Source of the DNA: Thermodesulfobacteriota bacterium
Lineage (GTDB): Bacteria > Desulfobacterota > Desulfobacteria > Desulfobacterales > JARGFK01
DNA: 64,000 nucleotides
Reading direction: 5' to 3'
Assembly: GCA_040757625.1 (NCBI GenBank)
Contig: JBFLWU010000015.1
Span: 7,684-71,683 of the forward strand
Position numbers and translations under genes: made by a program. The notes beneath the pieces are model-generated. The model had not been told where the DNA came from and did not search any database. It saw only the letters and a list, made by a program, of their open reading frames with translations. Positions 4,373 through 43,697 of this stretch are shown here, piece by piece; within the stretch, counting starts at the first letter, position 1, and the number at the start of each line of letters is the position of its first letter.

Positions 4373-5080
4373 TTAATCCCACAAAACGCCGGCCCTGCGA
4401 CCTTTTTCCAGATAATATTCCCAAACTTTTTTGATGCTTACGGATGGCAGGTAGGTTTTAGCGGCTGCGCGTTTGATCTGTTCCGGCGAAAGCGGCCGGG
4501 GGGTGCCGAGGATGGAGGATTCCACCAGCAGGCGGGCGTTTTCTTCCAGATACAGACAGGCCACAAAAGTTGCCTCGATGGAGGATTCAGCCACCACCGC
4601 ACCGTGTCCTTTCATAATAACGGCGCGTGAGCTGCCCAGCGCGTTGGCCAGTCCGTCTGCCTCTTCAAAGGTGGTGATTTTCTCCGCCTCGGAATAAACC
4701 GGGACCACCGCCCCGAAAATGCTGCCGTGATGGCAGACGGGGACCAGGTCCTTTCCGGCAATGCTGGGCAGAATCGCGTAATGGCAATGGATGTGAGCCA
4801 CGCTGTTGACATCGGGCCTGGCCCGATAAACAGCGGCGTGAATGGGGAGCTCTTGGGGCGGCTCATGCCTGCCGCCGACCCATTCGCCGGTCAACGAGAC
4901 TTCCGGCAGATCGTCCGGGATCACCGCCTCGCGGGAAATCCGCATGGGGTTTATAAAGAAGGTCTTCAGGCCCGGCGCCCGGACGCTGATATGCCCGGAA
5001 TAATCCAGCAGCCCCGCCAGGGTCAGGAGGCGGCAGGCCCGCGCCGCATTGTCTTTCGAGATCTGGATGTCTTTGTCCAT
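4373..5080 (-). CDS. class II aldolase/adducin-fold protein
   Basis: 235 aa. Metal-binding His cluster VAHIHCHYAILPS. The N-terminus LAGLLDYSGHISVR is typical of the family. Confidence 0.85.
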   Translation of the reverse strand: MDKDIQISKDNAARACRLLTLAGLLDYSGHISVRAPGLKTFFINPMRISREAVIPDDLPEVSLTGEWVGGRHEPPQELPIHAAVYRARPDVNSVAHIHCHYAILPSIAGKDLVPVCHHGSIFGAVVPVYSEAEKITTFEEADGLANALGSSRAVIMKGHGAVVAESSIEATFVACLYLEENARLLVESSILGTPRPLSPEQIKRAAAKTYLPSVSIKKVWEYYLEKGRRAGVLWD

Positions 5081-5846: not shown

Positions 5847-6081
5847 CAGGCTTCCTCCATTAAAGATTGAAACCGAGAAAAGATATTCGCAGCATAAAGG
5901 GGACGCCCCGATTTGTCAACGGTCCAGAAAGGGTTGGGCGGCAGTGGCAAGGAGCCGGTTTTGATTTGACATCCACTCAAACCGCGTGATACCTGAATCA
6001 TGCAAAAAACATGAAAGCTTCCGGCGCGTGTAATATTCAGATAAAGCGCACAACTATCAACCCATCCATGAACGGTTGAAA

Positions 6082-6954
6082 ATGGCCGCTGTCTACGCGA
6101 TTCTTTCAGCATTTTTGTATGCCGTTGCGAATGTTTATACCAAAAAGGGATTCGCACACACCAATATCCTGTCTGCTTTCATCATCAGCATTATTTCATG
6201 CTTTATTTCTTCTCTGGCGATTTGCCTGTTTCTGTTTTCATTCGAGCGGTATTTTGATCGGGCTGTCTGGTTTTTCATCGCGGCGGGTCTTGTCGGCCCT
6301 TTCCTGGGAAGGGCCCTTTTGTATGAAGCGATCGATCGCGTGGGCGCATCGGTGGCCTGCACCGTATTTGAAGCCAAGCCGATTTTTTCCGTCGTAATCG
6401 CCGTGCTTGTGCTGGAGGAACGGCTAAGCATTTCCATTCTGTTCGGGGTCCTATTGATGATGCTGGGAACCGTGATTATCAGCCGGGAAAGCTCCGGCGG
6501 CGATATTGTAAAAAAATGGACCCGCAGGGATTTGATTCTGCCGCTGTTTGCCGGCGCATGCTATGGGGGCTCTCACGTATTGAGAAAAATAGGAATTAAT
6601 TTGACGCCCGAACCTTTTATGGCGGTGATGTGGCAAAATGCCGGTGCGCTGATTTGTTCGCCTTTCCTTATCTGGGCCTATCGCAACAATCAGCAGGTAA
6701 CTTTTCACAATCAAAAGGCCTGGTTTGTTTTCGGCGTAGCCGGGATATTGCAGGTGGCGGCCCAATGGTGCCTCTTTGCGGCATTGGAATACGGCACCGT
6801 TGTAGTGGTGTCTCCGCTGACTTCGTTGTCCACGCTGTTCGTTCTGTTGCTGGCGGCGTTTCTTCTGAAGAAAGTCGAACGCATCACCTGGAAGATCGTA
6901 ACCGGCGCACTGTTGATTATCGGCGCTACGGTTGTATTGACGCTGTTTCCATAG
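6082..6954 (+). CDS. EamA/DMT-family membrane transporter
   Basis: About 10 predicted hydrophobic helices in two repeated halves. ATG at 6082 chosen over the TTG at 6076. Confidence 0.85.
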   Translation: MAAVYAILSAFLYAVANVYTKKGFAHTNILSAFIISIISCFISSLAICLFLFSFERYFDRAVWFFIAAGLVGPFLGRALLYEAIDRVGASVACTVFEAKPIFSVVIAVLVLEERLSISILFGVLLMMLGTVIISRESSGGDIVKKWTRRDLILPLFAGACYGGSHVLRKIGINLTPEPFMAVMWQNAGALICSPFLIWAYRNNQQVTFHNQKAWFVFGVAGILQVAAQWCLFAALEYGTVVVVSPLTSLSTLFVLLLAAFLLKKVERITWKIVTGALLIIGATVVLTLFP

Positions 6955-7421: not shown

Positions 7422-8420
7422 ATGAAAACGAAATTGGTATTACTGATTATCGCATTTGTGTTGGCATGGATGCCCATAACGAACGGACATGCCACACCTT
7501 TCTATGAAGGGAAGGTCATCCAGTTGATCGTTTCAACAAAACCGGGAGGCGGTTTCGACTCCTATGCCCGTCTACTGGCCGGCACGATGGAGAAGTACCT
7601 GCCGGGCTGTACCATCATCGTAAAGAATGTTCCCGGTGCCGGCCATATCATTGGAACCAACCTGATTTATTCCGCGAAACCGAACGGGTTGACGTTCGGT
7701 ATTTTTGAAAGGTCGCTGGTCGCCACCCAGGTTGCCGGTTTGAAAGGCGTCAAATTCGATCTGAGCAAAATGAGCTGGCTGGGTTCGCCGGCATCCGACC
7801 CGCGTTCCTTTGTTGTGGCCAAGCATACGCCTTATCAGACCCTTGATGATGCGCTTAAGTCGAAACAGCGGATTAGGTTTGCGGCATCCGGAATCGGTAC
7901 TGCCGATTATCTGGATCCGGTTTTGATGGGAAAAATGCTTGGGGCGGAAAACTGGCAGATCAGTACGGGTTATGCCGGGCAGGAAGACCAGCTGGCAATG
8001 ATGCGGGGAGAGATTGATGCCGTAATTACTTCATGGAGCAACGGCAAGGGGTTTGTCGAAAGCGGGGAAGGACGGGTGCTGATGTTCAACAGCGACAAAC
8101 CGATACCGGGATACGAGCAATTGCCTTTGCTGAAAGATATCGTCTCAAAAGAGTATCAGCCCCTTATCGATCTGCTGCTCTTTATGGTGATGTTCAATCG
8201 GCCGTTTGCGGGACCGCCGGATATTCCGGCCGATCGCCTGGGGATATTGCGGGAAGCCTTCAAAAAGTCATGGAATGATCCGGAAATGCTTAAAAAAGCC
8301 GAGCTGATGAAACGGCCCGTCAATTACATCGGTTACGCCGAAGGTGAAAAACTGATCAAAAACGCGTTAAATCAACCGCCCGAGGTCGTCAAGCTGATTA
8401 AGGAGGCCTTTGGACAATAG
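7422..8420 (+). CDS. tctC: TctC-family (Bug) periplasmic solute-binding protein of a tripartite tricarboxylate transporter
   Basis: 332 aa. Signal peptide MKTKLVLLIIAFVLAWMPITNGHA and the motif KPGGGFDSYARL. Confidence 0.9.
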   Translation: MKTKLVLLIIAFVLAWMPITNGHATPFYEGKVIQLIVSTKPGGGFDSYARLLAGTMEKYLPGCTIIVKNVPGAGHIIGTNLIYSAKPNGLTFGIFERSLVATQVAGLKGVKFDLSKMSWLGSPASDPRSFVVAKHTPYQTLDDALKSKQRIRFAASGIGTADYLDPVLMGKMLGAENWQISTGYAGQEDQLAMMRGEIDAVITSWSNGKGFVESGEGRVLMFNSDKPIPGYEQLPLLKDIVSKEYQPLIDLLLFMVMFNRPFAGPPDIPADRLGILREAFKKSWNDPEMLKKAELMKRPVNYIGYAEGEKLIKNALNQPPEVVKLIKEAFGQ

Positions 8421-8620: not shown

Positions 8621-9163
8621 ATGAATCCACAAAGTGATGCCGGAGAAATCAAGTGGGAGATGTGGCAAAAAAAAAGGGTATTTGTGCGGGAACTTTCGGG
8701 AAAATATGCCGAGATCTATGAAAATCTACTAAAACAGCCCAGGGTCTATAAAAGCAAGGAAATACCCTTTAAAGGCGGGCCGATTTTCTTTCACAAGCGC
8801 GCCGTTGATCCGAAAACCACCGCAATCACTCAGACAATCGAGTCACACATCGATGTGCTGGCCCCTGGCGGTTACGGCCAAAAACACGGCCATATGAACA
8901 GCGCACTTTTTTACATCCTGGATGGCAAAGGCTATGATATTCACGAAAAGATCCGCTATGACTGGGAGGCGGGAGATGTCTGCATCGTGGAAAACGGCTG
9001 CGTTCATCAGCATTTCAATGATGAATCCGAAAGGCCGGCGCGCTATATCGTTTTCAAGGCTAAACCGTTGTTTCTGTTTTTTCATCTGATGTTTCAGAAA
9101 AATGTGACCTATCCATCCGCGGAGCCTAAGCCGGGATGGGAAAATTTCCAGGCGGAAGATTAA
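8621..9163 (+). CDS. monocupin, gentisate-1,2-dioxygenase-like, type A (3-His pattern)
   Basis: ORF 8540..9163 trimmed to ATG 8621 (GGAGG upstream). Cupin motifs GQKHGHMNSALFYILDG and GDVCIVENGCVHQHFN. The canonical Glu of motif 1 is absent. Confidence 0.75.
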   Translation: MNPQSDAGEIKWEMWQKKRVFVRELSGKYAEIYENLLKQPRVYKSKEIPFKGGPIFFHKRAVDPKTTAITQTIESHIDVLAPGGYGQKHGHMNSALFYILDGKGYDIHEKIRYDWEAGDVCIVENGCVHQHFNDESERPARYIVFKAKPLFLFFHLMFQKNVTYPSAEPKPGWENFQAED

Positions 9164-9177
9164 AGGGGAGGAACCTC

Positions 9178-9729
9178 ATGCAGTACGAAGAAGCGAAAAA
9201 AGCGGTGAAAGGCGATAAACACGCCAATTACTATCAGGAGTTTCTTGAGCAGTCAAAAGCGTTTCGAGCAGATTACCGGAATCGCAAGAATGTCGTCAAG
9301 GCCGAGGAGATGCCCTGGGATGATTCCGTACAGGGACGCATCAAGCATATGGTGAATGAAAAGATGAATACGCGTGAATGCGCCATCGACCTGTATCAGC
9401 AGTTTCTGAAGCCGGGAGGCGCCAGCGGCAAACACCGTCACATGTCTGAAGAAATATTATATGTGCTGGAAGGAAAAGGATATGATCTGCATTGGGATGT
9501 TAAATTCGAATGCACGGAAACCTATGCCTGGGACTGGGAAAAAGAACCCAAAAAATTTGAATGGGAAGAAGGCGATTACGTTTATATCCCACCTTATACG
9601 ACCCATCAGCATTTTAATGCTGATAAAGAAAGACCAGTCCGGTTTATTTCTGCAACCAATCGCGTTGTAAAGAGCATGGGTTTTGACTGGATGGAACAGG
9701 TAGCGCCGGCTCCGGACTACAAACCATAA
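9178..9729 (+). CDS. monocupin, gentisate-1,2-dioxygenase-like, type B (HxH..E..H pattern)
   Basis: ORF trimmed to ATG 9178 (GGGGAGG upstream). Motif 1 is GASGKHRHMSEEILYVLEG and motif 2 is GDYVYIPPYTTHQHFN. Confidence 0.8.
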   Translation: MQYEEAKKAVKGDKHANYYQEFLEQSKAFRADYRNRKNVVKAEEMPWDDSVQGRIKHMVNEKMNTRECAIDLYQQFLKPGGASGKHRHMSEEILYVLEGKGYDLHWDVKFECTETYAWDWEKEPKKFEWEEGDYVYIPPYTTHQHFNADKERPVRFISATNRVVKSMGFDWMEQVAPAPDYKP

Positions 9730-9796: not shown

Positions 9797-11221
9797 ATGC
9801 ACAAGGACCTGAGAGAATGGATAGAAAAAGCGGATAAGATGGGCCGGGTGGTTCGAATTACGGGCGCCCACTGGGATAAGGAAATGGGGACCCTGGCTGA
9901 ATTGTTTTGCACGAAAAAAGGGCTGGAAACCCCCACATTATTATTTGAAAACGTTAAAGGCTGCGCCAAAGGGTACCGGGTGTTGTTTCATGAATTGATC
10001 ACCCCATGGGCGGTGGCGCTCACCATGGATTTCCCCTTGGAATATGAATCCCTGGTGGATCTGGTAAAGGTCGTACATCAAAAGGTCGAGAATATCAAAC
10101 CCATTCCCATTAAAAAGGTTAAAAAAGGACCGGTTCAGGAAAACATTCAGCAGGGTGATGAAGTCAATCTACTGAAATTCCCGGTACCGCTTTTTTCGGT
10201 ATTTGATGGCGGCCGCTATATCGGGACATCGGATGTCGTCATCATGAAAGACCCTGACATAGGATATATTAATCTGGGGACCTACCGCATGCAGCTTTAT
10301 GATGAGAAATCCGCGGCGCTTTTTATCTCCCCTGGAAAACACGCCAATATCATCCGGCAAAAATATTGGGAAAAGGGGCAGCCGTGCCCGGTGGCGGTGA
10401 GCCTCGGCCAGGATCCCTGCCTGGCGCTGTTTGCCGGAAACGAAGTTCCCTTCGGGATCAGCGAATATGAACTGGTGGGCGGTTTGAAAGGCAAACCCGT
10501 CGAAGTAGTCGAAGCTCCGGAAACCGGCCTTCCGGTCCCGGCAAATTCAGAGATTGTCATCGAAGGTTACTGTTATCCCGATGACAATCAGCCCGAAGGG
10601 CCTTTTCCGGAGTGGACCGGTTATTACGGCAGTTCCAGCAGAAAAGAGCCGGTGATGCGGGTCAAAACAGTCCTGCATCGCAACGATCCCATCCTGACGG
10701 CCCGGCATGAAATCCGCAACAAGGCGTTTGATTTCCGGTCCTTGATGCGTTCCGCCCTTCTCTGGAAGGAACTGGAGACCGCCGGGATTCCGGAGGTTAA
10801 AGGCGTCTGGCGCTATGAACAGGCAGGGTCTCGATACTTTAATGTGATATCGATCAAACAGCGCTATTACGGACATGCCCGCCAGGTGCTGCACGTGGCG
10901 GCCCAGACCACGGCCGGCGCCTATGCCGGCCGATGGGTGGTGGTGGTGGACGACGATATCGATCCGGCCAATATTCATGAAGTGTTGTGGGCCATGGCCA
11001 CCCGCTGCCAGCCGGCCACAGACATTGAATTCATCAACCGGTCGCGTAGCACCCCGCTTGACCCGTTGTGCTTTGATAAGAACAAAAACTACTATACTTC
11101 CCTGGCCCTGGTGGATGCGTGCATTCCTTATGAAGAAAAGGATAACTTTCCCCGGGCGACCGGTGCGCCGGCGGAATACGCCAGGAAAATTTACCAGAAA
11201 TGGCGTAAACTTTTCAAGTAA
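9797..11221 (+). CDS. UbiD-family decarboxylase/carboxylase, 474 aa, phenylphosphate-carboxylase-like class (U2)
   Basis: GGAGGTGA RBS. Blocks FDGGRYIGT, EGPFPEWTGYY, IKQRYYGHARQ, VVVVDDDIDP and STPLDP...VDACIPYE. Confidence 0.9.
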   Translation: MHKDLREWIEKADKMGRVVRITGAHWDKEMGTLAELFCTKKGLETPTLLFENVKGCAKGYRVLFHELITPWAVALTMDFPLEYESLVDLVKVVHQKVENIKPIPIKKVKKGPVQENIQQGDEVNLLKFPVPLFSVFDGGRYIGTSDVVIMKDPDIGYINLGTYRMQLYDEKSAALFISPGKHANIIRQKYWEKGQPCPVAVSLGQDPCLALFAGNEVPFGISEYELVGGLKGKPVEVVEAPETGLPVPANSEIVIEGYCYPDDNQPEGPFPEWTGYYGSSSRKEPVMRVKTVLHRNDPILTARHEIRNKAFDFRSLMRSALLWKELETAGIPEVKGVWRYEQAGSRYFNVISIKQRYYGHARQVLHVAAQTTAGAYAGRWVVVVDDDIDPANIHEVLWAMATRCQPATDIEFINRSRSTPLDPLCFDKNKNYYTSLALVDACIPYEEKDNFPRATGAPAEYARKIYQKWRKLFK

Positions 11222-11457
11222 ATCACGGTACTGTCTGCTCCAAACAGGTAATCAAGGCGCTACATTTCAAAGCATTTCTGGGGACAACCCGCCGGCATGT
11301 GCGGATAAAATTTGTTTTGCAGACGGATCCGAAAAGTCATTTTGGCCGACACCTGAATTTTGAACGAACAGATTGAAGGATGGAGTCGTTTTTCTTCGAT
11401 TATCATCAAGTTTCAGGTGGCAAGAATTGCGATAACCATTTAAAAGGAGGGGGGGGT

Positions 11458-12429
11458 ATGAGAAGAAAAAGCTGGCAAGTATTCCTGGTTGGAGGTCTGG
11501 CATTGATGTTAATGGCTTCGGCAATCAACACCCATGAGGCTTACGCTGAAAACTATCCGGAAAAGGACATCCTTTGGATTATACCCTTGCGGGCCGGCGG
11601 TGGATATGACACCTATTCGAGAAGAATTGCGCCGGTTATGTCGAAATATCTTCCCAACAAAGTCAATGTGGGGGCAAAAAACATTACAGGGGCGGGTGGC
11701 GTCACAGGCGTCAGCACGGTCTTTAAATCCAAACCGGATGGTTACACTATTGGTCTGGCGGCCTATCCCGGACTGGCGGTTGCAAGCATGACCATGGATA
11801 TCGGCTTTGATCCCAACCAACTGACCCCTCTTGCACAGATTGCGGTGAGCGAGCAGGCGCTGTTCGTTTCGAGCAAATCAAAGCTGAAATCTCTGGATGA
11901 CCTCAAGAAGACCAAGGGCGTCCGCCTGGGGACGACCTCACGGGGGGCGTCCATGTTTTCTTTCTCGCTGGTAGCCAGCAAGACGCTGGGGATTGACTCC
12001 GAACTGGTAACCGGATACGGCGGGACTTCCGATATTATACCGGCAATCATGCGGGGGGATGTTGACGGTGCCGTACTGAATCTGACACAGCTGAAAAAAT
12101 ATATCGAGAGCGGTGATTTAAAACCGCTTTTTACGTTTACCTCCAAACGGCATGAACTGACTCCGGATGTGCCCTGCGTGTCCGAACTGGGTGTCCCGGA
12201 AGCAACGGTTGTCCAGGACTACAAGATGCTGTTTGCCCCGCCGGGACTGCCGAAAGACCGGCTGGACATTCTGAAAAAAGCGCTAGTCGATTCATTTAAC
12301 GACAAGGAGTTGCTGGAATGGTCAAAGAAATCTAGCATGCCGCTGGAATTGAAAATGGATGCGGAAATGAAAGCTGAAATCGACAAAATGACCAAGGTTT
12401 ACGGGCAGTATAAGGAACTACTGAAATAG
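11458..12429 (+). CDS. tctC: TctC-family solute-binding protein (second one in this operon)
   Basis: ORF trimmed to ATG 11458 (AAGGAGGGGGG upstream). Signal peptide MRRKSWQVFLVGGLALMLMASA and the motif RAGGGYDTYSR. Confidence 0.9.
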   Translation: MRRKSWQVFLVGGLALMLMASAINTHEAYAENYPEKDILWIIPLRAGGGYDTYSRRIAPVMSKYLPNKVNVGAKNITGAGGVTGVSTVFKSKPDGYTIGLAAYPGLAVASMTMDIGFDPNQLTPLAQIAVSEQALFVSSKSKLKSLDDLKKTKGVRLGTTSRGASMFSFSLVASKTLGIDSELVTGYGGTSDIIPAIMRGDVDGAVLNLTQLKKYIESGDLKPLFTFTSKRHELTPDVPCVSELGVPEATVVQDYKMLFAPPGLPKDRLDILKKALVDSFNDKELLEWSKKSSMPLELKMDAEMKAEIDKMTKVYGQYKELLK

Positions 12430-12440
12430 ATGGAAAGCAT

Positions 12441-12473
12441 CGCGGAGGGGACTCTCCTTCCGCGGTGATTTTT
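12441..12473 (+). terminator. intercistronic hairpin plus T5 (partial terminator/attenuator) between tctC and tctA
   Basis: 10-bp stem CGCGGAGGGG/TCCTTCCGCG with loop ACTC, followed by GTGATTTTT. Confidence 0.45.
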
Positions 12474-12489
12474 CTCAAGGGGGGCGCAT

Positions 12490-13989
12490 ATGGGGTTGTT
12501 CGAGGCCATGACGGTTGCTTTATTCAAAGCCTTTGAGCTGCAGAATCTGTTATATGTTTCCCTGGGAACGATTATCGGCCTGGTGTTCGGCTGTCTTCCC
12601 GGTCTCTCAAGCGTGGTGGGCCTTAGTCTGCTGCTTCCGCTGACATTCGGCATGGATCCGATGTCGGGCATGTTCCTTTATGCCGGCGTCATGGGCGCCA
12701 ACCCGTTCGGGGGGTCCATCAGCGCTATTTTAATCAATACTCCCGGAACGGCAGTCAATGTCGCCACCTGCTTTGATGGATATCCCATGACCCAGCGGGG
12801 CGAAGCCGGCCGGGCCCTGGGGATTTCAGCTACTGCTTCCGGCCTGGGAGCGGTTTTCGGTCTGGTGATATTGATTCTATTAATTCCGGTGGTTCGACAG
12901 ACAATTATGCTGTTCGGGCCGCCGGAGTTTTTGATGTTTATCCTGTTCGGTCTGAGTTCCATCGTGGTTGCATCCCGCGGCAATATGATCAAGGGGCTTC
13001 TGGGCGGCGGGCTGGGTATGCTGGTCGCCTGCGTGGGACGAAGCCCCATTACCGGGGCGATCCGCTTCAGCCGCGACATACAATATTTCTGGGACGGCAT
13101 CGAGCTGATTCCGTTTGTAATCGGAATGTTTGCCCTGTCTGAAGTGATTCATCTTACCGTAACGGGGAAGACCAAGATCGCCACCCGCAAAATTGAAGGC
13201 AAGATCAGCGGTGTGTGGGAAGGCGTCAAAGATGTATTCCGCTATAAACTCTGTTTTTTCAGAAGTTCGGCCATCGGCACCCTGATCGGGATCATTCCGG
13301 GCATCGGCGGTGCGACGGCCAATTTTATCGCCTACACGGTTGCCATGCAGACATCCAGACATCCCGAAAAGTTCGGTACCGGAACTCCCGAAGGGGTCGT
13401 TGCTGCCGAGTCGGCCAATAATGCCAAGGAAGGCGGCTCCCTGCTGCCCACCGTGGGCTTCGGCATCCCGGGTAGCGTGGAAATGGCGGTGTTGCTGGGT
13501 GCTTTTATCCTGCATGGCTTGGTCCCCGGGCCGCTTCTGATAAAGGAAAACCTTGATATCGTTTGGGCGATTATCTGGGGGTTGGTCATTTCCAATGTGC
13601 TGGCATCCACGTTCGGATTGCTGGCCGCAAAGATCCTTGTCAGGGTTTCTTTTATCGAAGTATCCATCATCATCCCTGTGGTCGCAGCGATATCACTGAC
13701 CGGCGCTTATGCCAACAGGGGCAGTATTATCGACATGCTGATGGCTGTGATATTCGGGTTTTTCAGCTATTTTATGCGACGCAACGGATTTCCGGTGATC
13801 ACGCTGGTGATCGGTTTTGTGCTGGGCAAACTGGCGGAAGTCTCCTTTTTCCAGTCCCTGATGGTTTCGCGGGGCGATTATTTCGTATTCTTCAAAAGGC
13901 CGCTTCCCCTTACCCTGTTTCTTCTCCTGCTGGTGGTTCTGGTTCTTCCCTTTATCCGCCAAAAAGGAAGGCAAAAGGAAAGCTCATGA
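12490..13989 (+). CDS. tctA: TctA large permease subunit
   Basis: 499 aa polytopic membrane protein with TctA blocks GxxPGLS, INTPGT and GIPGS. Confidence 0.95.
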   Translation: MGLFEAMTVALFKAFELQNLLYVSLGTIIGLVFGCLPGLSSVVGLSLLLPLTFGMDPMSGMFLYAGVMGANPFGGSISAILINTPGTAVNVATCFDGYPMTQRGEAGRALGISATASGLGAVFGLVILILLIPVVRQTIMLFGPPEFLMFILFGLSSIVVASRGNMIKGLLGGGLGMLVACVGRSPITGAIRFSRDIQYFWDGIELIPFVIGMFALSEVIHLTVTGKTKIATRKIEGKISGVWEGVKDVFRYKLCFFRSSAIGTLIGIIPGIGGATANFIAYTVAMQTSRHPEKFGTGTPEGVVAAESANNAKEGGSLLPTVGFGIPGSVEMAVLLGAFILHGLVPGPLLIKENLDIVWAIIWGLVISNVLASTFGLLAAKILVRVSFIEVSIIIPVVAAISLTGAYANRGSIIDMLMAVIFGFFSYFMRRNGFPVITLVIGFVLGKLAEVSFFQSLMVSRGDYFVFFKRPLPLTLFLLLLVVLVLPFIRQKGRQKESS

Positions 13990-16441: not shown

Positions 16442-16455
16442 AGGGGCTCCTCCAT

Positions 16456-30236: not shown

Positions 30237-30806
30237 ATGGAAAGAATAGTCGTGGGAATGTCGGGCGCATCAGGCGCCATTCTGGGCATCAGGCTGCTGG
30301 AAGTCCTGTCGGTGTCCGATTTTGAGGTCCACCTGGTGATTTCCGGTTCCGCCAAACGAACGATCGAACTGGAAACGGACTGGCAGCTAAAAGATGTGGA
30401 GGCCCTGGCCTCAAAGGTGCACGATTTCGACGACATCGGCGCCCCCATAGCCAGCGGATCATTCAGGACCAGGGGCATGGCCATTGTGCCGTGCTCCATC
30501 AAGACCCTGTCGGCGCTTGCAAATTCTTACAATACCAACCTGCTGATACGGGCGGCGGATGTTACCCTCAAAGAGCGCCGCCGGCTGGTGGTGGTCCCCC
30601 GGGAGGCGCCGCTGCATGCCGGTCATCTCGATTTGATGGCAAAGGTGGAGCGTCTCAGGGGGATGATTTTGCCGCCGTTTATGACGTTTTACCACCGCCC
30701 CAAAAACCTGGACGACATGATAAACCACCTCGTGGGCAAGGTTCTGGATTGTTTTCATATCGACAACAACCTGTTCCAGCGGTGGGGAGAAAAAAATAAA
30801 AAATGA
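30237..30806 (+). CDS. ubiX: UbiX flavin prenyltransferase (prFMN synthase)
   Basis: 189 aa. MERIVVGMSGASGAILGIRLLE, MAIVPCSIKTLSA, RRLVVVPREAPL. Confidence 0.95.
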   Translation: MERIVVGMSGASGAILGIRLLEVLSVSDFEVHLVISGSAKRTIELETDWQLKDVEALASKVHDFDDIGAPIASGSFRTRGMAIVPCSIKTLSALANSYNTNLLIRAADVTLKERRRLVVVPREAPLHAGHLDLMAKVERLRGMILPPFMTFYHRPKNLDDMINHLVGKVLDCFHIDNNLFQRWGEKNKK

Positions 30807-30819: not shown

Positions 30820-32280
30820 ATGAAGCACCGAATTCCCTACGAAGACCTGAGAGGCTGGCTGGATCAGGCCCGCAAGCTGAACGAGGTCAAAGACGTCGAC
30901 GGCGCCAGCTGGCAGGAAGACATCGGCATGGCCACGGAATTGCTGCATCATTCGGATCCGGCGCCGGCTGCACTGTTTGACAATATTCCCGGCTATCCTC
31001 AAGGATACCGCGTTCTGACCAATTTTTTCGGCGCCAGACGCATGAACATGACCCTGGGATTTCCGACCGACTTGAGCCGGGTCGAGCTTTCCAACGCCTT
31101 TACCGAGGTCTATCAGTCCGTCAAACCGATTCCGCACGAATATGTCAAAGACGGCCCCATTTTTGAGAATATCCAGGAAGGCGATAATGTCAACGTGCTC
31201 TCTTTCCCGACCCCTTTCTGGCACGAACAGGATGGCGGCCGCTATATCGGCACCGGCAGTTACGACATCACCCGGGACCCGGACGAGAACTGGATCAACC
31301 TCGGGACCTACCGCGTAATGGTGCACGACGAAAAAAGCTTGGGATTTTATATCTCCCCCGGCAAACACGGGCGGGTCCATCGCGACAAATTCATGGCCCT
31401 GAAGCAGCCGATGCCGGTGGTCGTGGTGGTCGGCGGCGATCCTTTCCTTTATTTGATGGCCTGCAACGAAGTCCCTTACGGCATCTGCGAGTACGACCTG
31501 GCGGGCGGCTTCCGCGGCAAGCCCTATCCGGTCGTCAAGGGTCGGGTGACCGGCCTGCCGATACCGGCCCATGCCGAAATCGCCCTGGAGGGCTTTGTCG
31601 ATCCGCGCAAAAGGCGGCAGGAAGGACCCTTCGGTGAATGGACCGGGTATTACGCCAGCGGCGCGCGCGAAGAACCGGTGGTGGACGTCAAGGCGATTTA
31701 TCACCGCAACAATCCCATTATTCTGGGCTGTCCCCCCAACCGGCCGCCGGATGAAATCGCCCGCTACCGGGCGGTGGTCCGATCCGGCCTGCTGAAACAG
31801 CAGCTGCTCAACAGTGGCCTTTCCGGAATCAAAGCGGTCTGGGGCCATGAGGTGGGCAGTTCGCGTATGCTCCTGACCGTCGCCATCGAGCAGCGCTACG
31901 CCGGGCATGCCACCCAGGTGGGTCACGTCGCCTCGCAATGCCATGTGGGGGCTTATGCCGGCAAGTATGTCATCGTGGTGGACGACGATATCGACGTCTC
32001 CGATCTTGAAGCGGTCATGTGGGCCGTGGTTTCACGTTCGGATCCGGCCACGTCCATCGATATCATTCACAACGCCTGGTCGACGCATCTCGACCCGCGG
32101 ATCCCTCCGGAAGACAAGCACAAGGGGCAGCTGACCAACTCCCGCGCCATTATCGACGCGACCCGTCCCTTTGCCTGGAAAGAACAGTTTCCGCTGGTGA
32201 ACATGCCCAGCCCGGAAACCGCGCGGAAGGCCAGGGAAAAATTCGGTTACCTGCTCGACGGGTTCTGCAAGTCGCTTTAA
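30820..32280 (+). CDS. UbiD-family decarboxylase/carboxylase, 486 aa (U4)
   Basis: Starts 13 nt after the ubiX stop. Blocks QDGGRYIGT, EGPFGEWTGYY, EQRYAGHATQ, VIVVDDDID, SRAIIDATRPF. Confidence 0.9.
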   Translation: MKHRIPYEDLRGWLDQARKLNEVKDVDGASWQEDIGMATELLHHSDPAPAALFDNIPGYPQGYRVLTNFFGARRMNMTLGFPTDLSRVELSNAFTEVYQSVKPIPHEYVKDGPIFENIQEGDNVNVLSFPTPFWHEQDGGRYIGTGSYDITRDPDENWINLGTYRVMVHDEKSLGFYISPGKHGRVHRDKFMALKQPMPVVVVVGGDPFLYLMACNEVPYGICEYDLAGGFRGKPYPVVKGRVTGLPIPAHAEIALEGFVDPRKRRQEGPFGEWTGYYASGAREEPVVDVKAIYHRNNPIILGCPPNRPPDEIARYRAVVRSGLLKQQLLNSGLSGIKAVWGHEVGSSRMLLTVAIEQRYAGHATQVGHVASQCHVGAYAGKYVIVVDDDIDVSDLEAVMWAVVSRSDPATSIDIIHNAWSTHLDPRIPPEDKHKGQLTNSRAIIDATRPFAWKEQFPLVNMPSPETARKAREKFGYLLDGFCKSL

Positions 32281-32392
32281 ATCCATGATCGCTGTCAACG
32301 CTTGAGAGGTAAATGACGACGGTGAATCAAAGGAAGCGTTTATTAAAGAATTGAAAAACAAAAAAGAGAGCTGGACAACAGGAGATCAAAAC

Positions 32393-33829
32393 ATGGCACA
32401 TAAGGACTTGAGAGATTGGCTGAAAAAAGTTGAAAAGATGGGGCAGTTGAAAAAGGTTGATGGCGCCAACTGGGACCTGGAAATGGGGGCCATCACCGAG
32501 CTGATATACCAGGAGGGCAAGGGGACCCCCCCGGCCGTTTTGTTCGACCAGGTTCCCGGGTACCCGAAAGGCTTCCGGGCGCTCTTCGGGATGACCTGTT
32601 CGGTGGAAAGAATGGCCCTGACGTTGAACCTGCCGCCCGTTAAAACCGGCGTCGAACTGGTCCGGGCGTATCGTAACAAACTCAAGGATTTTAAACCGAT
32701 ACCCCCCCGATATGTAAAGGACGGCCCCATATTTGAAAATATCGACCGGGGCGACGACGTCAACGTCCTCAAGTTTCCGGTGCCGCTCCATCATGAACTC
32801 GACGGCGGCCGTTATATCGGTACGGGCTGTATGACCATGACCCGCGATCCGGAGGAGGGGTGGGTCAATTTCGGCGCCTACCGCGTCATGGTGCACGATG
32901 AAAAGACGATCGGCTTTTATATTTCGCCGGGCAAGCACGGCAACCTCCAGCGCCAGAAATATTTTGACAAGAACCAGCCCTGCCCGGCGGTGGTGTGCGT
33001 GGGGCAGGATCCGATGCTGTTCCTGGCTTCGGGCAACGAGGTCCCCTACGGCCTGTCCGAATACGATTACGCCGGCGGTTTTAAAGGCGAACCCATCGAC
33101 GTGGTCAAGGCCGAGTATACCGGATTCCCCATCCCGGCACATGCGGAAATCGTCCTGGAGGGCGAAGCGGTCCCCGGCGATGAAAAACTGGAAGGCCCCT
33201 TCGGCGAGTGGTCCGGCTATTACGCCAGCGACGCGAGGGTGGAGCCGGTGATCCGGGTCAAGAACGTTTATTACCGCAAGAATCCGATCCATACCTGCGC
33301 CCGTCCCGGAAGGCCGCCTTCGGACTACTCTTTCAGCAAATGCGTCGTCAAGTCGGCCATGATCTGGGATGAGCTGGAGAAGGCCGGCGTTCCCAACGTC
33401 AGGGGGGTCTGGTGCCACGAGGCCGGCGGCGGCAGGATGTTCAATATCGTCTCCATCAAGAACTCCTACCCGGGACACTCCCGCCAGGCCGGCATGATTA
33501 CCTCCCAGTGCCATGCCGGCGCTTACCTGGGAAGATATGTCGTGGTGGTGGATGACGATATCGATCCCTCCAACACCTTTGACGTTCTCTGGGCGATTGC
33601 CTCGCGTTCCGAACCGACCGAATCCATCGAAATCATCCGCAGCTGCTGGAGCGGACCGCTGGATCCCCGCATTCCCGAGGAGCGAAAGGGGCTCAATTCA
33701 CGGGCGATCATCGATGCCTGCCGTCCCTATCAGTGGCGCAAACGCTTTCCGGCCGTGGCGGAATCGAGTCCGGAGCTGAAGAAAAAGACGCTGAAGAAAT
33801 GGCACCGAACGATTTTTGACGGAAAATAA
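32393..33829 (+). CDS. UbiD-family decarboxylase/carboxylase, 478 aa (U5)
   Basis: ORF 32351 trimmed to ATG 32393 (AGGAG RBS). Blocks LDGGRYIGT, EGPFGEWSGYY, KNSYPGHSRQ, VVVVDDDIDP, SRAIIDACRPY. Confidence 0.9.
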   Translation: MAHKDLRDWLKKVEKMGQLKKVDGANWDLEMGAITELIYQEGKGTPPAVLFDQVPGYPKGFRALFGMTCSVERMALTLNLPPVKTGVELVRAYRNKLKDFKPIPPRYVKDGPIFENIDRGDDVNVLKFPVPLHHELDGGRYIGTGCMTMTRDPEEGWVNFGAYRVMVHDEKTIGFYISPGKHGNLQRQKYFDKNQPCPAVVCVGQDPMLFLASGNEVPYGLSEYDYAGGFKGEPIDVVKAEYTGFPIPAHAEIVLEGEAVPGDEKLEGPFGEWSGYYASDARVEPVIRVKNVYYRKNPIHTCARPGRPPSDYSFSKCVVKSAMIWDELEKAGVPNVRGVWCHEAGGGRMFNIVSIKNSYPGHSRQAGMITSQCHAGAYLGRYVVVVDDDIDPSNTFDVLWAIASRSEPTESIEIIRSCWSGPLDPRIPEERKGLNSRAIIDACRPYQWRKRFPAVAESSPELKKKTLKKWHRTIFDGK

Positions 33830-33873: not shown

Positions 33874-34440
33874 ATGACCGGACAGGAAACAAAGGATTAC
33901 AGCGACATCTGGGCCGCCGGACAGGAGAAATATCAGAAGCAGCGGCTTTACGTGAGAGCGATCGCCGGTTTCAGCTACAGCATGGCGCAGCAGCTCAAGG
34001 AACTGCGGAGCGTCCCGCGCGTCATGAAGGCAAAAGATCTGAAATTCGCCAAGGGCCCGCAGTATTTCAACTGTACCATCCTCAGTCCCATCCGCAACAT
34101 GGCCCAGTCGATCTTTACGCACATGTGCGTCCTGACGCCGGAGGGCAAATCCCAGAAGCACGGGCACGTGAACGAGGCCATTTTCTTCATACTGGACGGC
34201 GAAGGATATGACATCCACGACGGAGAGCGGCAGGACTGGAAGGCCGGCGATATCGCCATTGTCCCGAATTCAACAGTGCATCAGCACTTCAATAAGAGCA
34301 AGGACAAACTGGCGCGGGTGCTGATCATCAAGACCAAGCCTTTCTATCATTTCATGAATATGTTTTTCCAGGAAGTGGTGGAACCGCAGCCGAAGACGCC
34401 TGTTCCCGGTTATGAGGATTTTAAGCCCAGCATTACCTAA
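33874..34440 (+). CDS. monocupin, gentisate-dioxygenase-like, type A (second pair)
   Basis: AAGGAG RBS. SQKHGHVNEAIFFILDG and GDIAIVPNSTVHQHFN. Paralog of 8621..9163. Confidence 0.75.
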   Translation: MTGQETKDYSDIWAAGQEKYQKQRLYVRAIAGFSYSMAQQLKELRSVPRVMKAKDLKFAKGPQYFNCTILSPIRNMAQSIFTHMCVLTPEGKSQKHGHVNEAIFFILDGEGYDIHDGERQDWKAGDIAIVPNSTVHQHFNKSKDKLARVLIIKTKPFYHFMNMFFQEVVEPQPKTPVPGYEDFKPSIT

Positions 34441-34475: not shown

Positions 34476-35027
34476 ATGGATTACGGAGAGAAAAAATATG
34501 CCCAGCCCAAGGCGCCCACGGCGACCTACTACCAGGATCGCCTGGTCGAGGTTCAGAAGGCCAAGACCGCCCATAAGCGATCGGTCGTTTCCGCCGAAGA
34601 GATGGAGTGGGAGCTTTGCCAGCAGGGTCACATCAAGCACCTGGTGAACGAAAAGATGGAAACCGCCTCCAATACCCTCGATATCTGCATGCAGGTTATT
34701 CCCGGCGGGAGCCGCTCGGGCAAGCATTGCCACATGGCCGAGGAATATATGTTCATCTTGGAGGGAAAGGGCTATTCGCTGCACTGGGATGTCGATTTCG
34801 AGTTGGGTGAAGCCTATTACTGGAAAGCCCAGGAAACGCCGTCCAAGTGGGAATGGGAGCGGGGCGACTCGGTTTACATCCCGCCCAATACGGTTCACCA
34901 GCACTTTAATTCCGATCCCAAAAACCCGGTTCGCTTTATTTCGGCGGAAAGCCGCATGTTCAAGTACATGGGGCTGGACACCCTGGAGCAGTTCGAGAAC
35001 GCTCCGGAATTCGACCGGAAGAAGTAA
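34476..35027 (+). CDS. monocupin, gentisate-dioxygenase-like, type B (second pair)
   Basis: ORF 34452 trimmed to ATG 34476 (GGGGAGGA 7 nt upstream). SRSGKHCHMAEEYMFILEG and GDSVYIPPNTVHQHFN. Paralog of 9178..9729. Confidence 0.8.
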   Translation: MDYGEKKYAQPKAPTATYYQDRLVEVQKAKTAHKRSVVSAEEMEWELCQQGHIKHLVNEKMETASNTLDICMQVIPGGSRSGKHCHMAEEYMFILEGKGYSLHWDVDFELGEAYYWKAQETPSKWEWERGDSVYIPPNTVHQHFNSDPKNPVRFISAESRMFKYMGLDTLEQFENAPEFDRKK

Positions 35028-36860: not shown

Positions 36861-37958
36861 ATGACCCTGTTTTTGAACAACGACGACGTCAGGCGCGTCC
36901 TCACCATGGAGCTGACCATCCGGGCCCTGGAGGAATCCTACACGCGCATGATCCAGGGCGAGGGGGTATGCCGTCCGCGGATCGACGTCCAGATCCCCAC
37001 CAGCGACCCGGCTAAAACCTACCGCTGGGGAACCATGGAGGGGGGCTCGGCCAGCGGGTATTTCGCCATCCGAATGAAATCGGACATCGCCTTTGAAAAA
37101 CGCTACAGCGGCAGCATCACCCTGGAAAAGTACTGCATGGTGCCGGGAACGTTTTGCGGGCTGATATTTCTGTTCCGGGTCGATACCGGCGAGCCCCTGG
37201 CCATTTTAAACGATGGCTATCTTCAGCATCTGCGCGTGGGGGCCGATTCGGCCCTGGGCGTCCGCTACATGGCCCGGGAGGATGCGGAAACGGTGGGAAT
37301 GTTCGGATCCGGCGGCATGGCCAGGAGCCACATGGAATCGTTTTGCCTGGTCAGAAACATCAAGCGGCTCAAGGTGTACAGTCCCACCCGAAAAAACCGC
37401 GAAGCCTATGTCCGCGAGATGGAAGCGACCTATGGGATAGAGGCCGTCGCCCTGGACAATCCTGAAGATGTGTACAAGGACGCCGACATCCTGTGCAGCT
37501 GCACCGACGCCAGCGTGCCGGTGATACGGGGGTGCCATGTCCGCAAGGGGACCCATATCACCTCCATCGGCGGCCGCCCCGATGCGGATACGTTTAAAAA
37601 GATCGACCGGTTTCTGCGCTTTGGCAACGCCACGCCGCCTTTCGGCTGCGACCAGCCGGTGGTGGATGAATTCCTGCGGTACGTTACCCCTAAAATGGGT
37701 GGCGGCATCAAGCGCGAACACTCCCATGCCCGGGGAGTCGTTGGGGCAATCGCCGGGGAACGGGTGGTCTATTTAAAGGATATTCTCGCTGGCAGGAAAG
37801 GCCGGCAGACACCGGACGACATTACTTACTCGGAGCGGGGAAATCTTCAGGGCGCTCAGTTTTACGCAGTTGCCGGAAAGGTCTATGAACTTGCCCGGCA
37901 GCAGGGTTTGGGCAGGGAAATACCAACGGAATGGTTTCTGCAGGATATCCGTGATTAG
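36861..37958 (+). CDS. ornithine cyclodeaminase/mu-crystallin-family NAD(P)-dependent enzyme
   Basis: 365 aa. N-terminus LFLNNDDVRRVLTMELTIRALEESY and the Rossmann segment VGMFGSGGMARSH. Confidence 0.8.
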   Translation: MTLFLNNDDVRRVLTMELTIRALEESYTRMIQGEGVCRPRIDVQIPTSDPAKTYRWGTMEGGSASGYFAIRMKSDIAFEKRYSGSITLEKYCMVPGTFCGLIFLFRVDTGEPLAILNDGYLQHLRVGADSALGVRYMAREDAETVGMFGSGGMARSHMESFCLVRNIKRLKVYSPTRKNREAYVREMEATYGIEAVALDNPEDVYKDADILCSCTDASVPVIRGCHVRKGTHITSIGGRPDADTFKKIDRFLRFGNATPPFGCDQPVVDEFLRYVTPKMGGGIKREHSHARGVVGAIAGERVVYLKDILAGRKGRQTPDDITYSERGNLQGAQFYAVAGKVYELARQQGLGREIPTEWFLQDIRD

Positions 37959-39481: not shown

Positions 39482-39597
39482 TCTAATCCCCCGGTTTGGA
39501 TTGGTTGGCTCCGCTTACCCGGAACCCCCCCGGTTTTTTATCGGCCCTGATCCCGTCCCGGCCAAATTGGGTTGAGAGCGGTATAGGGCGCTTTCGT

Positions 39598-41082: not shown

Positions 41083-41168
41083 GACTTCCTTCTTTATTTT
41101 TGAAAATTAATGGTGCGAGCTGCTGTCCGCATCCCGAAAATCGTCGCAAAATAATATTCGAAAGGCCC

Positions 41169-43696: not shown

Positions 43697-43697
43697 A

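What the first reader, a model, noticed from the sequence alone, without database searches (positions are those of the whole stretch)
8621..9729. Duplicated split gentisate-dioxygenase-like cupin pairs, each directly upstream of a UbiD gene
Two pairs of ~180-aa monocupins (8621-9163 with 9178-9729, and 33874-34440 with 34476-35027) are clear A/B paralog sets. Type A keeps HxH...H but lacks the motif-1 Glu, giving a 3-His pattern like the catalytic domain of gentisate or salicylate 1,2-dioxygenases. Type B keeps the full G-x5-HxH-x3-E-x6-G motif. Together each pair looks like a bicupin dioxygenase split into two genes. Each pair precedes a Ppc-like UbiD (9797 and 35167). An O2-dependent ring-cleaving dioxygenase would be out of place among AOR, prFMN and CoA-thioester chemistry. 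The pairs may instead act as metal-dependent isomerases or decarboxylases, or as non-catalytic partners of the adjacent UbiD.
Basis: partly seen in the sequence, partly recalled or inferred. Interest (0 to 1): 0.65.

Follow-up and report, generated by a model that had tools for sequence, protein, structure and literature searches.

The report
Split cupin enzyme beside UbiD decarboxylases
Two pairs of adjacent small genes encode the two halves of an uncharacterised metal-binding double-barrel (bicupin-like) enzyme that sits inside aromatic-acid decarboxylase operons in sediment anaerobes; the same gene pair is common in oxygen-breathing bacteria that lack those decarboxylases, so it is not a decarboxylase subunit and its chemistry is still unknown.

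Summary
cupA1/cupB1 (8621-9163, 9178-9729) and cupA2/cupB2 (33874-34440, 34476-35027) are Cupin_2 proteins forming two A/B paralogue sets. Each lies on the same strand 67 or 139 nt upstream of a UbiD gene. Type A has invariant HxH...H with Ala at the canonical Glu position (121 sequences). Type B has invariant HxH-x3-E...H (122 sequences).

The A->B gene pair is an old, tightly coupled unit (median gap about 9 nt). It is found in at least 508 species representatives, most of them aerobic Proteobacteria or Terriglobia. Genuine single-chain A-B fusions exist, and one models confidently as a bicupin (pTM 0.88). The "split bicupin" reading is therefore supported.

UbiD linkage is real but restricted to one group: 12 of 16 Desulfobacterota-type loci, against 0 of 89 A genes elsewhere within 6 kb (one at about 7 kb). 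The pairs are not ordinary gentisate dioxygenases. HMM scores are 24-29 bits against a cutoff of 442, and the Arg that anchors the substrate is replaced by an invariant Phe. They are also unlikely to be obligate UbiD partners.

Best reading: a catalytic heteromeric metalloenzyme acting on imported hydroxy- or N-(hetero)aromatic carboxylates, probably without O2 in this host. The reaction itself is inferred, not shown.

The parts
8621..9163 (+). cupA1: type-A monocupin (180 aa). It has a 3-His site and no canonical Glu, and is a divergent lineage.
   Evidence: Cupin_2 E=6.3e-11. Motifs. About 52% identity to family members and 42% to A2. Long branch in the NJ tree.
9178..9729 (+). cupB1: type-B monocupin (183 aa), with a 3-His-1-Glu site and a 17-residue beta-hairpin insert.
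   Evidence: Cupin_2 E=1.7e-12. 50% identity to B2. Starts 14 nt after the cupA1 stop and has a strong SD sequence.
9797..11221 (+). UbiD-family decarboxylase of the PhdA-like subgroup, 67 nt downstream of cupB1.
   Evidence: TIGR00148 265 bits. Phenylphosphate carboxylase beta model 320 bits, below its 469 cutoff. Closest PDB entry 7PDA (PhdA), E=8e-99. GTYR and EGPFPE catalytic motifs present.
7422..8420 (+). TctC-type periplasmic binding protein, 200 nt upstream of cupA1.
   Evidence: tblastn relatives lie next to cupA/B in many loci. PDB hits to Bug27 and the terephthalate-binding protein are weak.
11380..13989 (+). TctC (11380-12429) and TctA (12490-13989) of a tripartite tricarboxylate transporter, downstream of the module-1 UbiD.
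   Evidence: ORFs. Homologues flank cupA/B in other loci.
4373..5080 (-). Class II aldolase-family protein resembling 3,4-dihydroxyphthalate decarboxylase (module 1).
   Evidence: Pfam Aldolase_II E=2e-34. NCBIfam PhtC model 82 bits, below its 200 cutoff.
6076..6954 (+). EamA-type membrane transporter upstream of module 1.
   Evidence: Pfam EamA E=6e-34. EamA genes also follow cupB in aerobic TTT-type loci.
30237..30806 (+). UbiX (prFMN synthase), first gene of module 2.
   Evidence: ORF. Synteny of UbiX-UbiD-UbiD-cupA-cupB-UbiD is conserved in L084, L085 and L088 at 89-94% identity.
30820..33829 (+). Two PhdA-like UbiD genes (30820-32280 and 32351-33829) directly upstream of cupA2.
   Evidence: NCBIfam results. 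Catalytic motifs present. Synteny.
33874..34440 (+). cupA2: type-A monocupin (188 aa). H96/H98/H136 form a 3-His site, with A102 at the Glu position and F104 at the SDO Arg127 position.
   Evidence: 1476 homologues.
34476..35027 (+). cupB2: type-B monocupin (183 aa) with ligands H84/H86/E90/H141.
   Evidence: Identical to database protein P0121.
35167..36624 (+). PhdA-like UbiD, 139 nt downstream of cupB2.
   Evidence: (7PDA, E=7e-103).
36861..37958 (+). Ornithine cyclodeaminase/mu-crystallin family protein (imine reductase or cyclodeaminase type) in module 2.
   Evidence: Pfam OCD_Mu_crystall E=1e-29. Syntenic in L086 and L088 and L093. 49% identical homologue near cupA/B in L056.
38138..38833 (+). 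Class II aldolase-family protein (module 2).
   Evidence: Pfam E=1.4e-31. Its best NCBIfam hit is the PhtC 3,4-dihydroxyphthalate decarboxylase model (83 bits, below cutoff). Syntenic in L004, L088 and L093.
38927..43738 (-). Convergent (opposite-strand) unit downstream of module 2: small membrane protein (38927-39481; TctB-like by position only), TctA (39598-41082), TctC (41169-42173) and a fifth PhdA-like UbiD (42242-43738).
45489..47327 (-). ThDP enzyme of the PRK08327 type. Its homologues (up to 46% identity) lie within 7 kb of cupA/B in 17 non-anaerobe loci.

Best explanation
Each cupA/cupB pair encodes the two subunits of a heteromeric "split bicupin" metalloenzyme. The family is large, unnamed and distantly related to gentisate/salicylate/5-nitrosalicylate-type cupins. 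Subunit A carries a 3-His metal site and subunit B a 3-His-1-Glu site, and both are under strict conservation. The pair is a self-contained catalytic unit that travels with uptake systems for organic acids (TTT or ABC transporters). In Desulfobacterota-type anaerobes such as this host, it has been built into operons with PhdA-like prFMN (UbiD) decarboxylases, class II aldolase-type decarboxylase-like proteins and sometimes an OCD-type imine reductase. Inferred mechanism: an imported hydroxy- or amino/N-(hetero)aromatic polycarboxylate, or the product of the neighbouring UbiD, chelates the metal of subunit A. It is then converted in an O2-independent step such as isomerisation or tautomerisation, ortho-decarboxylation, or hydrolytic or lyase-type ring opening. 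Subunit B provides a second metal site and the partner barrel. Shown here: the gene pair, its conservation, the fusions, the bicupin model and the clade-restricted UbiD linkage. Inferred: heteromer formation, the substrate class and O2 independence.
For: - **Pairing.** B lies immediately downstream of A in 14 of 14 anaerobe-type and 64 of 76 other A genes with enough flank, and the order is reversed in 4 more. The estimated gap has a median of 9 nt (n=78). L093 and L094 add two more A->B cases.
- **Fusions.** P0253, P0288, P0314 and P0246 are single chains with natural linkers. The best 50%-cluster representatives for A2 are chains of 351-373 aa with two or three matched stretches.
- **Model.** AlphaFold2 of fusion P0288 gives pLDDT 86.7 and pTM 0.88. 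Foldseek finds bicupins: OxdC TM 0.58, MncA 0.58 and GDO 3bu7 0.52.
- **Catalytic sites kept.** A has H96, H98, H136 and H138 in 121 of 121 sequences. B has H84, H86, E90, H141 and H143 in 122 of 122. More than 40 further invariant residues are shared by anaerobe and aerobe members.
- **Context in anaerobes.** The synteny UbiX-UbiD-UbiD-A-B-UbiD(-TctC-OCD-AldII) is conserved in sediment contigs. UbiD lies within 6 kb in 12 of 16 anaerobe-type loci, alongside a DMSO-reductase-type or XDH-type molybdoenzyme in L001 and L094.
- **Host type.** AOR, prFMN and CoA-thioester genes are present, and the closest relatives are Desulfobacterales MAGs.
- **Substrate hints.** The adjacent UbiDs are closest to phenazine-1-carboxylate decarboxylase. 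RidA, NicX-like and isochorismatase genes lie next to fused forms. AldII proteins hit the 3,4-dihydroxyphthalate decarboxylase model.
Against: - No member of the family has been characterised, and no paper links cupins to UbiD.
- The only characterised relatives detectable by sequence are O2-dependent ring-cleaving dioxygenases.
- A 3-His iron site is the hallmark of such dioxygenases (PMC10306065).
- Most family members live in aerobes, some next to Rieske oxygenase and reductase genes.
- The substrate hints are individually weak, and they point both to hydroxyphthalate-like and to N-heteroaromatic acids.
Confidence: 0.5

Rival explanations
1. The pairs are genuine O2-dependent, Fe(II) ring-cleaving dioxygenases of the gentisate / 5-substituted-salicylate class that happen to be two-subunit. 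The sediment anaerobe would use them under micro-oxic conditions to cleave a hydroxy-aromatic acid produced or spared by the decarboxylases.
For: The best sequence matches are 5-aminosalicylate and gentisate 1,2-dioxygenase models and GDO 3bu7 (E=2e-13). The A ligands H96/H98/H136 have the same positions as in the monocupin 5-nitrosalicylate dioxygenase, which also lacks Arg127 (it has Tyr104). S. pomeroyi GDO has two metal sites, and hydroquinone dioxygenases are two-subunit. The family is centred in aerobes, some with Rieske oxygenase, Fer2-FAD reductase and EutA-like or COG0523 metal-handling genes nearby.
Against: HMM scores are 20-38 bits against equivalog cutoffs of 442-650. SDO Arg127, essential there, is an invariant Phe in A and Met/Ile in B. 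The genes lie inside operons with prFMN decarboxylases in Desulfobacterota-type genomes that also carry AOR and anaerobic-type molybdoenzymes. No downstream maleylpyruvate-type isomerase or hydrolase was seen among recurrent neighbours.
Confidence: 0.27
2. The cupins are accessory, non-catalytic or maturation partners of the adjacent UbiD enzymes. They might act as small subunits, as substrate-delivery proteins, or as factors that oxidatively mature prFMN without O2.
For: Both pairs are in the same operon and immediately next to UbiD genes in the window. This arrangement recurs in 12 of 16 anaerobe-type loci, always with the PhdA-like UbiD subgroup. How anaerobes mature prFMN is an open question (own knowledge).
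Against: None of 89 A genes outside the anaerobe group has a UbiD within 6 kb, yet these proteins are 50-58% identical and keep all conserved residues. There are two pairs for eight UbiD genes in the window. In L001, L002 and L008 transporters separate the pair from UbiD. In Paraburkholderia and Limnohabitans the pair sits with transporters and other cupins only.
Confidence: 0.08
3. The pair is a ligand-binding, non-enzymatic module, such as a sensor or a sequestering protein for the transported acid or for a metal.
For: Some cupins only bind ligands: auxin-binding protein 1 is the best PDB sequence hit of B2, although weak (E=0.005). The pair is consistently adjacent to transporters.
Against: There is no DNA-binding or signalling domain. 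More than 40 residues around two metal sites are strictly conserved across phyla, and the pair has operon positions typical of enzymes.
Confidence: 0.05

Closest known systems
Gentisate / salicylate 1,2-dioxygenases (GDO, SDO; bicupin, 3-His Fe(II))
   Same: Cupin fold. They are the only characterised family detected by sequence (3bu7 E=2e-13, both domains match). Type A has the same 3-His motif, with Ala at the Glu position and a His at the SDO His162 position. The two barrels together give a bicupin. S. pomeroyi GDO also has two metal sites.
   Different: Two genes rather than one chain. TIGR02272 scores 24-29 bits against a cutoff of 442. SDO Arg127 is replaced by an invariant Phe. The B subunit keeps a Glu ligand and a 17-residue insert. 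The genes occur in anaerobes within prFMN decarboxylase operons.
Monocupin 5-nitrosalicylate 1,2-dioxygenase (5NSDO/NaaB) and 5-aminosalicylate 1,2-dioxygenase (MabB)
   Same: Size is about 190-210 aa, with an N-terminal extension followed by one barrel. The iron ligands H96/H98/H136 have the same numbering as in A2, and an aromatic residue sits at position 104 instead of Arg. MabB is the best NCBIfam hit for all four proteins.
   Different: 5NSDO is a homotetramer of one subunit type. Here there are two distinct, co-conserved subunit types. Sequence similarity is marginal (8ch4 E=0.048; NF049978 20-38 bits against a cutoff of 650).
Oxalate decarboxylase OxdC / MncA-type bicupins with two Mn sites
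   Same: Best structural matches of the fused-family model (TM 0.58). Both have two metal sites, one per barrel. OxdC shows that a bicupin can be a decarboxylase.
   Different: Sequence identity is 14-17%. OxdC has 3-His-1-Glu in both barrels, whereas type A lacks the Glu. TM of about 0.55 with high rmsd indicates only generic bicupin similarity.
Two-subunit hydroquinone 1,2-dioxygenases (PnpCD/HapCD type)
   Same: A precedent for a cupin ring-cleavage enzyme built from two different subunits.
   Different: No sequence match was found in the PDB searches at E<=1. Their subunits are unequal in size (own knowledge), whereas A and B are about equal and homologous to each other.
Small partner subunits of UbiD enzymes (VdcD, phenylphosphate carboxylase gamma/delta)
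   Same: Small genes co-transcribed with UbiD-family genes in anaerobic aromatic catabolism (own knowledge).
   Different: Those partners are not cupins and travel with UbiD. The cupA/B pair occurs overwhelmingly without UbiD.

Membership tests
Cupin superfamily (Pfam Cupin_2, PF07883) | Score above the Pfam gathering threshold | tested here: met
   42.3, 47.3, 45.9 and 42.4 bits against 27.2.
Cupin superfamily (Pfam Cupin_2, PF07883) | Two conserved motifs, G-x5-HxH-x3,4-E-x6-G and G-x5-PxG-x2-H-x3-N | tested here: met
   The full motif is present in B. A has the motif with Ala in place of Glu. Motif 2 reads ...HQHFN in both.
Gentisate 1,2-dioxygenase (TIGR02272) / class III ring-cleaving dioxygenases | Equivalog HMM score above the cutoff | tested here: not met
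   24.3 and 28.8 bits (A1, A2) against 442.1, and no hit for B.
Gentisate 1,2-dioxygenase (TIGR02272) / class III ring-cleaving dioxygenases | Three-histidine Fe(II) site in the catalytic barrel | tested here: met
   H96, H98 and H136 are invariant in 121 A sequences and align with the GDO ligands. Metal identity was not tested.
Gentisate 1,2-dioxygenase (TIGR02272) / class III ring-cleaving dioxygenases | Substrate-anchoring Arg127 and His162 (SDO numbering; Arg127 essential in SDO) | tested here: not met
   The Arg127 position is the invariant F104 in A and M/I92 in B. The His162 position is H138/H143 and is conserved.
Gentisate 1,2-dioxygenase (TIGR02272) / class III ring-cleaving dioxygenases | Single-chain bicupin of about 350 aa | tested here: not met
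   There are two genes of 180-188 aa. Related single-chain forms exist elsewhere.
Gentisate 1,2-dioxygenase (TIGR02272) / class III ring-cleaving dioxygenases | O2-dependent fission of a hydroxy-aromatic acid | not testable with these tools
   Needs an enzyme assay.
5-aminosalicylate 1,2-dioxygenase MabB (NF049978) | Equivalog HMM score above the cutoff | tested here: not met
   20-38 bits against 650.
Oxalate decarboxylase-type bicupin | 3-His-1-Glu Mn site in both barrels | tested here: not met
   Type A has an invariant Ala at the Glu position. Structural TM is 0.58 only.
Heteromeric (split) bicupin | The two barrel genes are co-conserved, adjacent and fused in some lineages | tested here: met
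   A->B in 78 of 90 cases, median gap 9 nt, genuine fusions, and a fusion model with pTM 0.88.
Heteromeric (split) bicupin | Physical A-B complex | not testable with these tools
A2 alone models poorly (pLDDT 53), but from a shallower alignment.
UbiD accessory subunit | Co-occurrence with UbiD throughout the family | tested here: not met
   12 of 16 anaerobe-type loci have a UbiD within 6 kb, but 0 of 89 other A genes do.

The most novel reading that the evidence does not exclude
A GDO-like 3-His / 3-His-1-Glu heteromeric cupin catalyses an O2-independent step (ring opening, ortho-decarboxylation or tautomerisation) on a hydroxy- or N-heteroaromatic polycarboxylate. It would work in concert with PhdA-like prFMN decarboxylases and define a new anaerobic route for such acids in sulfate-reducer-type sediment bacteria. 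The same chemistry would then run unrecognised in thousands of aerobic bacteria.
Probability: 0.3. Interest if true: 0.8.

Novelty: new variant of a known kind. Interest (0 to 1): 0.5.

Why it matters
The pair belongs to a very large family: more than 7000 database proteins and at least 508 species representatives. It has no name, no HMM and no characterised member, and its closest relatives are oxygen-dependent ring-cleaving enzymes. It is fully conserved inside prFMN decarboxylase operons of strict-anaerobe-type bacteria. That means one of two things. Either these organisms keep an oxygenase within an anaerobic pathway, or the 3-His cupin scaffold performs chemistry without oxygen that has not been described. 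Both outcomes bear on how hydroxylated or N-containing aromatic acids are degraded in anoxic sediments. Cultured aerobic carriers exist, so the substrate is experimentally reachable.

Tried and rejected
- **Exact-sequence look-ups** of A2, B1 and P0121 found no contig, so the source record stays unknown.
- **Plasmid collection** (tblastn with A2) gave only distant cupins.
I used a natural fusion instead.
- **MAFFT** twice aligned A and B singles onto the wrong half of the fusions. Alignment A6 was checked before use.
- **A2 alone** gave a poor model (pLDDT 53), so no fold search was run on it.
- **Database "fusions"**: several (P0241-P0245, P0247, P0250) carry Arg/Pro-rich junk linkers, and I discounted them as frameshift merges.
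- **Sequencing-run search** found only two sediment metagenomes holding 5% of the words and no RNA, so co-transcription could not be tested.
- **Promoter and terminator scan** was at background level.
- **TctC against PDB** did not discriminate between ligands.
- **Six literature searches** (of seven; the seventh was only to identify PDB entry 7PDA) found no characterised member and no cupin-UbiD link (one malformed).
- **prFMN maturation factor, and subunits of a multi-UbiD carboxylase**: both ideas were considered and rejected as the main reading, because the family mostly lacks UbiD and all five PhdA-like UbiDs keep their own catalytic motifs.
- **Oxalate metabolism** was considered (OxdC-like fold, ThDP enzymes, family III CoA-transferases). 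It is not supported: the CoA-transferases sit in a phthaloyl-CoA-decarboxylase-like module, and the ThDP enzyme tested by NCBIfam is PRK08327 / benzoylformate-decarboxylase-like.
Full report
**1. Observation**

The four ORFs are present exactly as described: cupA1 8621-9163, cupB1 9178-9729, cupA2 33874-34440 and cupB2 34476-35027, all on the + strand. Each start is preceded by a good Shine-Dalgarno sequence. The cupB2 start is the one used by the public gene call (P0121). All four exceed the Pfam Cupin_2 threshold.

A1/A2 are 42% identical, B1/B2 50%, and A against B 28-32%. So there are two types, each present twice.

- Type A reads HGHxN(E/S)A...HQHFN. It has three His and an Ala where the canonical motif-1 Glu would be.
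- Type B reads G-x5-HxH-x3-E-x6-G...HQHFN and carries a 17-residue insert.

Both pairs are followed on the same strand by a UbiD gene, after 67 and 139 nt. cupA2 is also preceded by a UbiD after 44 nt.

**2. The family**

None has a functional name beyond automatic "cupin" or "gentisate/quercetin dioxygenase-like" labels. NCBIfam gives only far sub-threshold hits to 5-aminosalicylate and gentisate 1,2-dioxygenases (20-38 bits against 442-650). The best solved structure by sequence is S. pomeroyi GDO (E=2e-13), with both of its barrels matching. B2 has essentially no PDB relative.

Across 121 type-A sequences, H96, H98, H136 and H138 are invariant and so is A102 at the Glu position. Across 122 type-B sequences, H84, H86, E90, H141 and H143 are invariant. 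More than 40 further positions are invariant in A across anaerobe- and aerobe-derived members. Both subunits therefore look like functional metal sites, which argues against a degenerate, non-catalytic role.

**3. Split bicupin**

A scan of one genome per species found at least 508 loci encoding an A relative.

- In the 80 best loci plus metagenome loci, B lies directly downstream of A in 14 of 14 anaerobe-type cases and in 64 of 76 other cases with enough flank. The order is reversed in 4. In 8 cases A is followed by a 372-aa paralogous bicupin.
- The estimated gap from the A stop to the B start has a median of 9 nt.
- Several database "fusions" are frameshift artefacts, but P0253, P0288, P0314 and P0246 have natural linkers.
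- In the 50%-clustered library, the top representatives for A2 are single chains of 351-373 aa.
- AlphaFold2 of fusion P0288, using an alignment I verified for correct half-placement, gave pLDDT 86.7 and pTM 0.88.
- Foldseek returned bicupins: oxalate decarboxylase TM 0.58, MncA 0.58, quercetinase 0.53 and GDO 0.52. This is generic bicupin architecture and not specifically GDO.
- A2 alone modelled poorly, with disordered N- and C-terminal extensions. That is compatible with partner dependence, but the alignment was shallower.

I conclude that A and B are the two halves of one enzyme. A physical complex remains inferred.

**4. Link to UbiD**

The operon UbiX-UbiD-UbiD-cupA-cupB-UbiD, often continued by TctC, OCD and AldII, recurs at 78-94% identity in five sediment contigs. 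Looser versions occur in Desulfobacterales, "Deltaproteobacteria", Syntrophales and Thermodesulfobacteriota MAGs. UbiD lies within 6 kb in 12 of 16 such loci, and it is always the subgroup represented by 9797, 30820, 32351 and 35167.

These UbiDs are closest to phenazine-1-carboxylate decarboxylase PhdA (7PDA, E about 1e-100). They keep the GxYR and EGPF(G/P)E catalytic motifs, so they look like independent enzymes.

Outside this group, none of 89 A genes has a UbiD within 6 kb. One betaproteobacterial locus has one at about 7 kb. The other carriers include Limnohabitans, Comamonadaceae, Paraburkholderia fungorum, Ramlibacter, Actibacterium, Woeseiaceae and Terriglobia. By general knowledge these are aerobes.

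In an NJ tree the A2 lineage forms a 10-member clade made up only of anaerobe-type loci. A second anaerobe group is separate, and A1 is a long orphan branch. The UbiD association is therefore real, recurrent and lineage-specific. It is not a property of the family, and only two pairs accompany the eight UbiD genes of the window.

**5. Context and function**

The window is a catabolic island containing:

- eight UbiDs and UbiX;
- a CTP-dependent riboflavin kinase;
- three class II aldolase-family proteins, whose best or near-best NCBIfam hit is 3,4-dihydroxyphthalate decarboxylase (sub-threshold);
- at least four TTT transporters;
- a module resembling phthaloyl-CoA decarboxylase plus CoA-transferase plus SucCD;
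- three ThDP enzymes, an AOR and MmgE/PrpD;
- YqeC/XdhC accessory genes for molybdenum hydroxylases.

Recurrent neighbours of cupA/B in other phyla are uptake systems (TTT, or an FbpABC-like ABC transporter), EamA, a PRK08327-type ThDP enzyme (17 loci; 46% identical to window 45489-47327), AldII, an OCD-type protein, an NMT1-like protein, a paralogous bicupin, and EutA-like or COG0523 metal-handling proteins. Fused forms sit next to RidA, or next to NicX-like and isochorismatase genes. L094 has an XDH-family molybdoenzyme directly after cupB, plus an aryl-CoA-ligase-like gene and an Amidohydro_2 gene. L001 has a DMSO-reductase-family enzyme.

The common theme is the uptake and stepwise decarboxylation or hydroxylation of aromatic or N-heteroaromatic (poly)carboxylates. 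The exact substrate cannot be named.

**6. Mechanism**

The GDO class binds an ortho-hydroxy-carboxylate to a 3-His iron. In SDO, Arg127 and His162 hold the carboxylate, and Arg127 is essential (PMC10306065). In type A the ligands align (H96/H98/H136, the same numbering as 5-nitrosalicylate dioxygenase) and the His162 equivalent is kept. Arg127, however, is an invariant Phe. Chelation of a hydroxy-aromatic acid is plausible, but recognition differs from GDO and SDO.

Proteins that are 50-70% identical, with identical conserved residues, serve both aerobes and Desulfobacterota-type anaerobes. In the anaerobes they are embedded in operons with anaerobic-type enzymes. I therefore favour, at about 0.5, an O2-independent metal-assisted step: tautomerisation or isomerisation, ortho-decarboxylation, or hydrolytic or lyase-type ring opening. 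The main rival, at about 0.27, is a true two-subunit dioxygenase used micro-oxically. A UbiD-accessory or prFMN-maturation role (about 0.08) and a pure binding role (about 0.05) fit the distribution poorly.

**7. Comparison and novelty**

The pair works like, and is distantly related to, GDO/5NSDO-type cupins. It fails the membership tests for those families on HMM cutoffs, chain architecture and Arg127. It is best filed as a new variant of a known kind: a heteromeric, two-metal-site split bicupin of an uncharacterised family, recruited into prFMN decarboxylase operons in anaerobes. No literature on it was found.

**8. Verdict**

- Interest is moderate (0.5).
- The finding opens a tractable question about a very large unknown enzyme family and about what a dioxygenase-like cupin does in anaerobes, but the function remains unknown.

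Noticed in passing
window 2466-4142(-), 9797-11221, 20162-21805, 23498-25042, 30820-32280, 32351-33829, 35167-36624, 42242-43738(-): There are eight UbiD-family genes in 64 kb. Five are PhdA-like and 42-52% identical to each other. Two form a pair at 62% identity. One is divergent and lacks the simple GxYR / EGPFGE pattern match.
   Followed up: partly
window 23498-30806: A divergent UbiD, two family III CoA-transferases, SucC/SucD and UbiX lie together. The layout resembles the anaerobic o-phthalate module (succinyl-CoA:phthalate CoA-transferase plus phthaloyl-CoA decarboxylase). This assignment rests on domain content only.
   Followed up: partly
window 5094-5486(-): A CTP-dependent (archaeal-type) riboflavin kinase lies next to a class II aldolase-family gene in a bacterial decarboxylase island. 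It may supply FMN for prFMN.
   Followed up: no
window 281-2342: YqeC and XdhC-type accessory genes for (seleno-)molybdenum hydroxylases sit at the left edge. The hydroxylase itself would lie outside the window. L094 has an XDH-family large subunit directly after cupB.
   Followed up: no
window 45489-47327(-); loci L011, L015, L020, L043 and others: A PRK08327-type ThDP enzyme co-occurs with cupA/B in 17 non-anaerobe loci, with up to 46% identity to the window copy. In Woeseiaceae it carries a Tat-like signal peptide.
   Followed up: partly
window 17477-18592: This 371-aa ORF has no Pfam hit. It is 39% identical to an NMT1/phosphonate-binding-like protein that recurs near cupA/B in aerobic TTT-type loci.
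   Followed up: partly
loci L033, L035, L040-L045, L080 and others (Burkholderiales): A->B is followed by a 372-aa paralogous bicupin whose N-terminal barrel has lost HxH. An EutA-like ATPase with long His-rich tails occurs in 25 loci, and COG0523 GTPases in L078 and L081. This suggests dedicated metal handling or reactivation.
   Followed up: partly
L091 (P0288) and L092 (P0314): Genuine single-chain A-B fusions sit next to NicX-like, isochorismatase and LUD-domain genes (L091), or next to IclR, TctCAB and a RidA-family deaminase (L092). Both hint at N-containing substrates.
   Followed up: partly
proteins P0241-P0245, P0247, P0250: These database "bicupins" of this family have Arg/Pro-rich nonsense linkers. 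They are most likely frameshift merges of adjacent A and B genes in error-prone assemblies.
   Followed up: yes
window 14573-17247: Two short-chain dehydrogenases flank a DUF6282 protein between module 1 and the next UbiD. Their roles were not examined.
   Followed up: no
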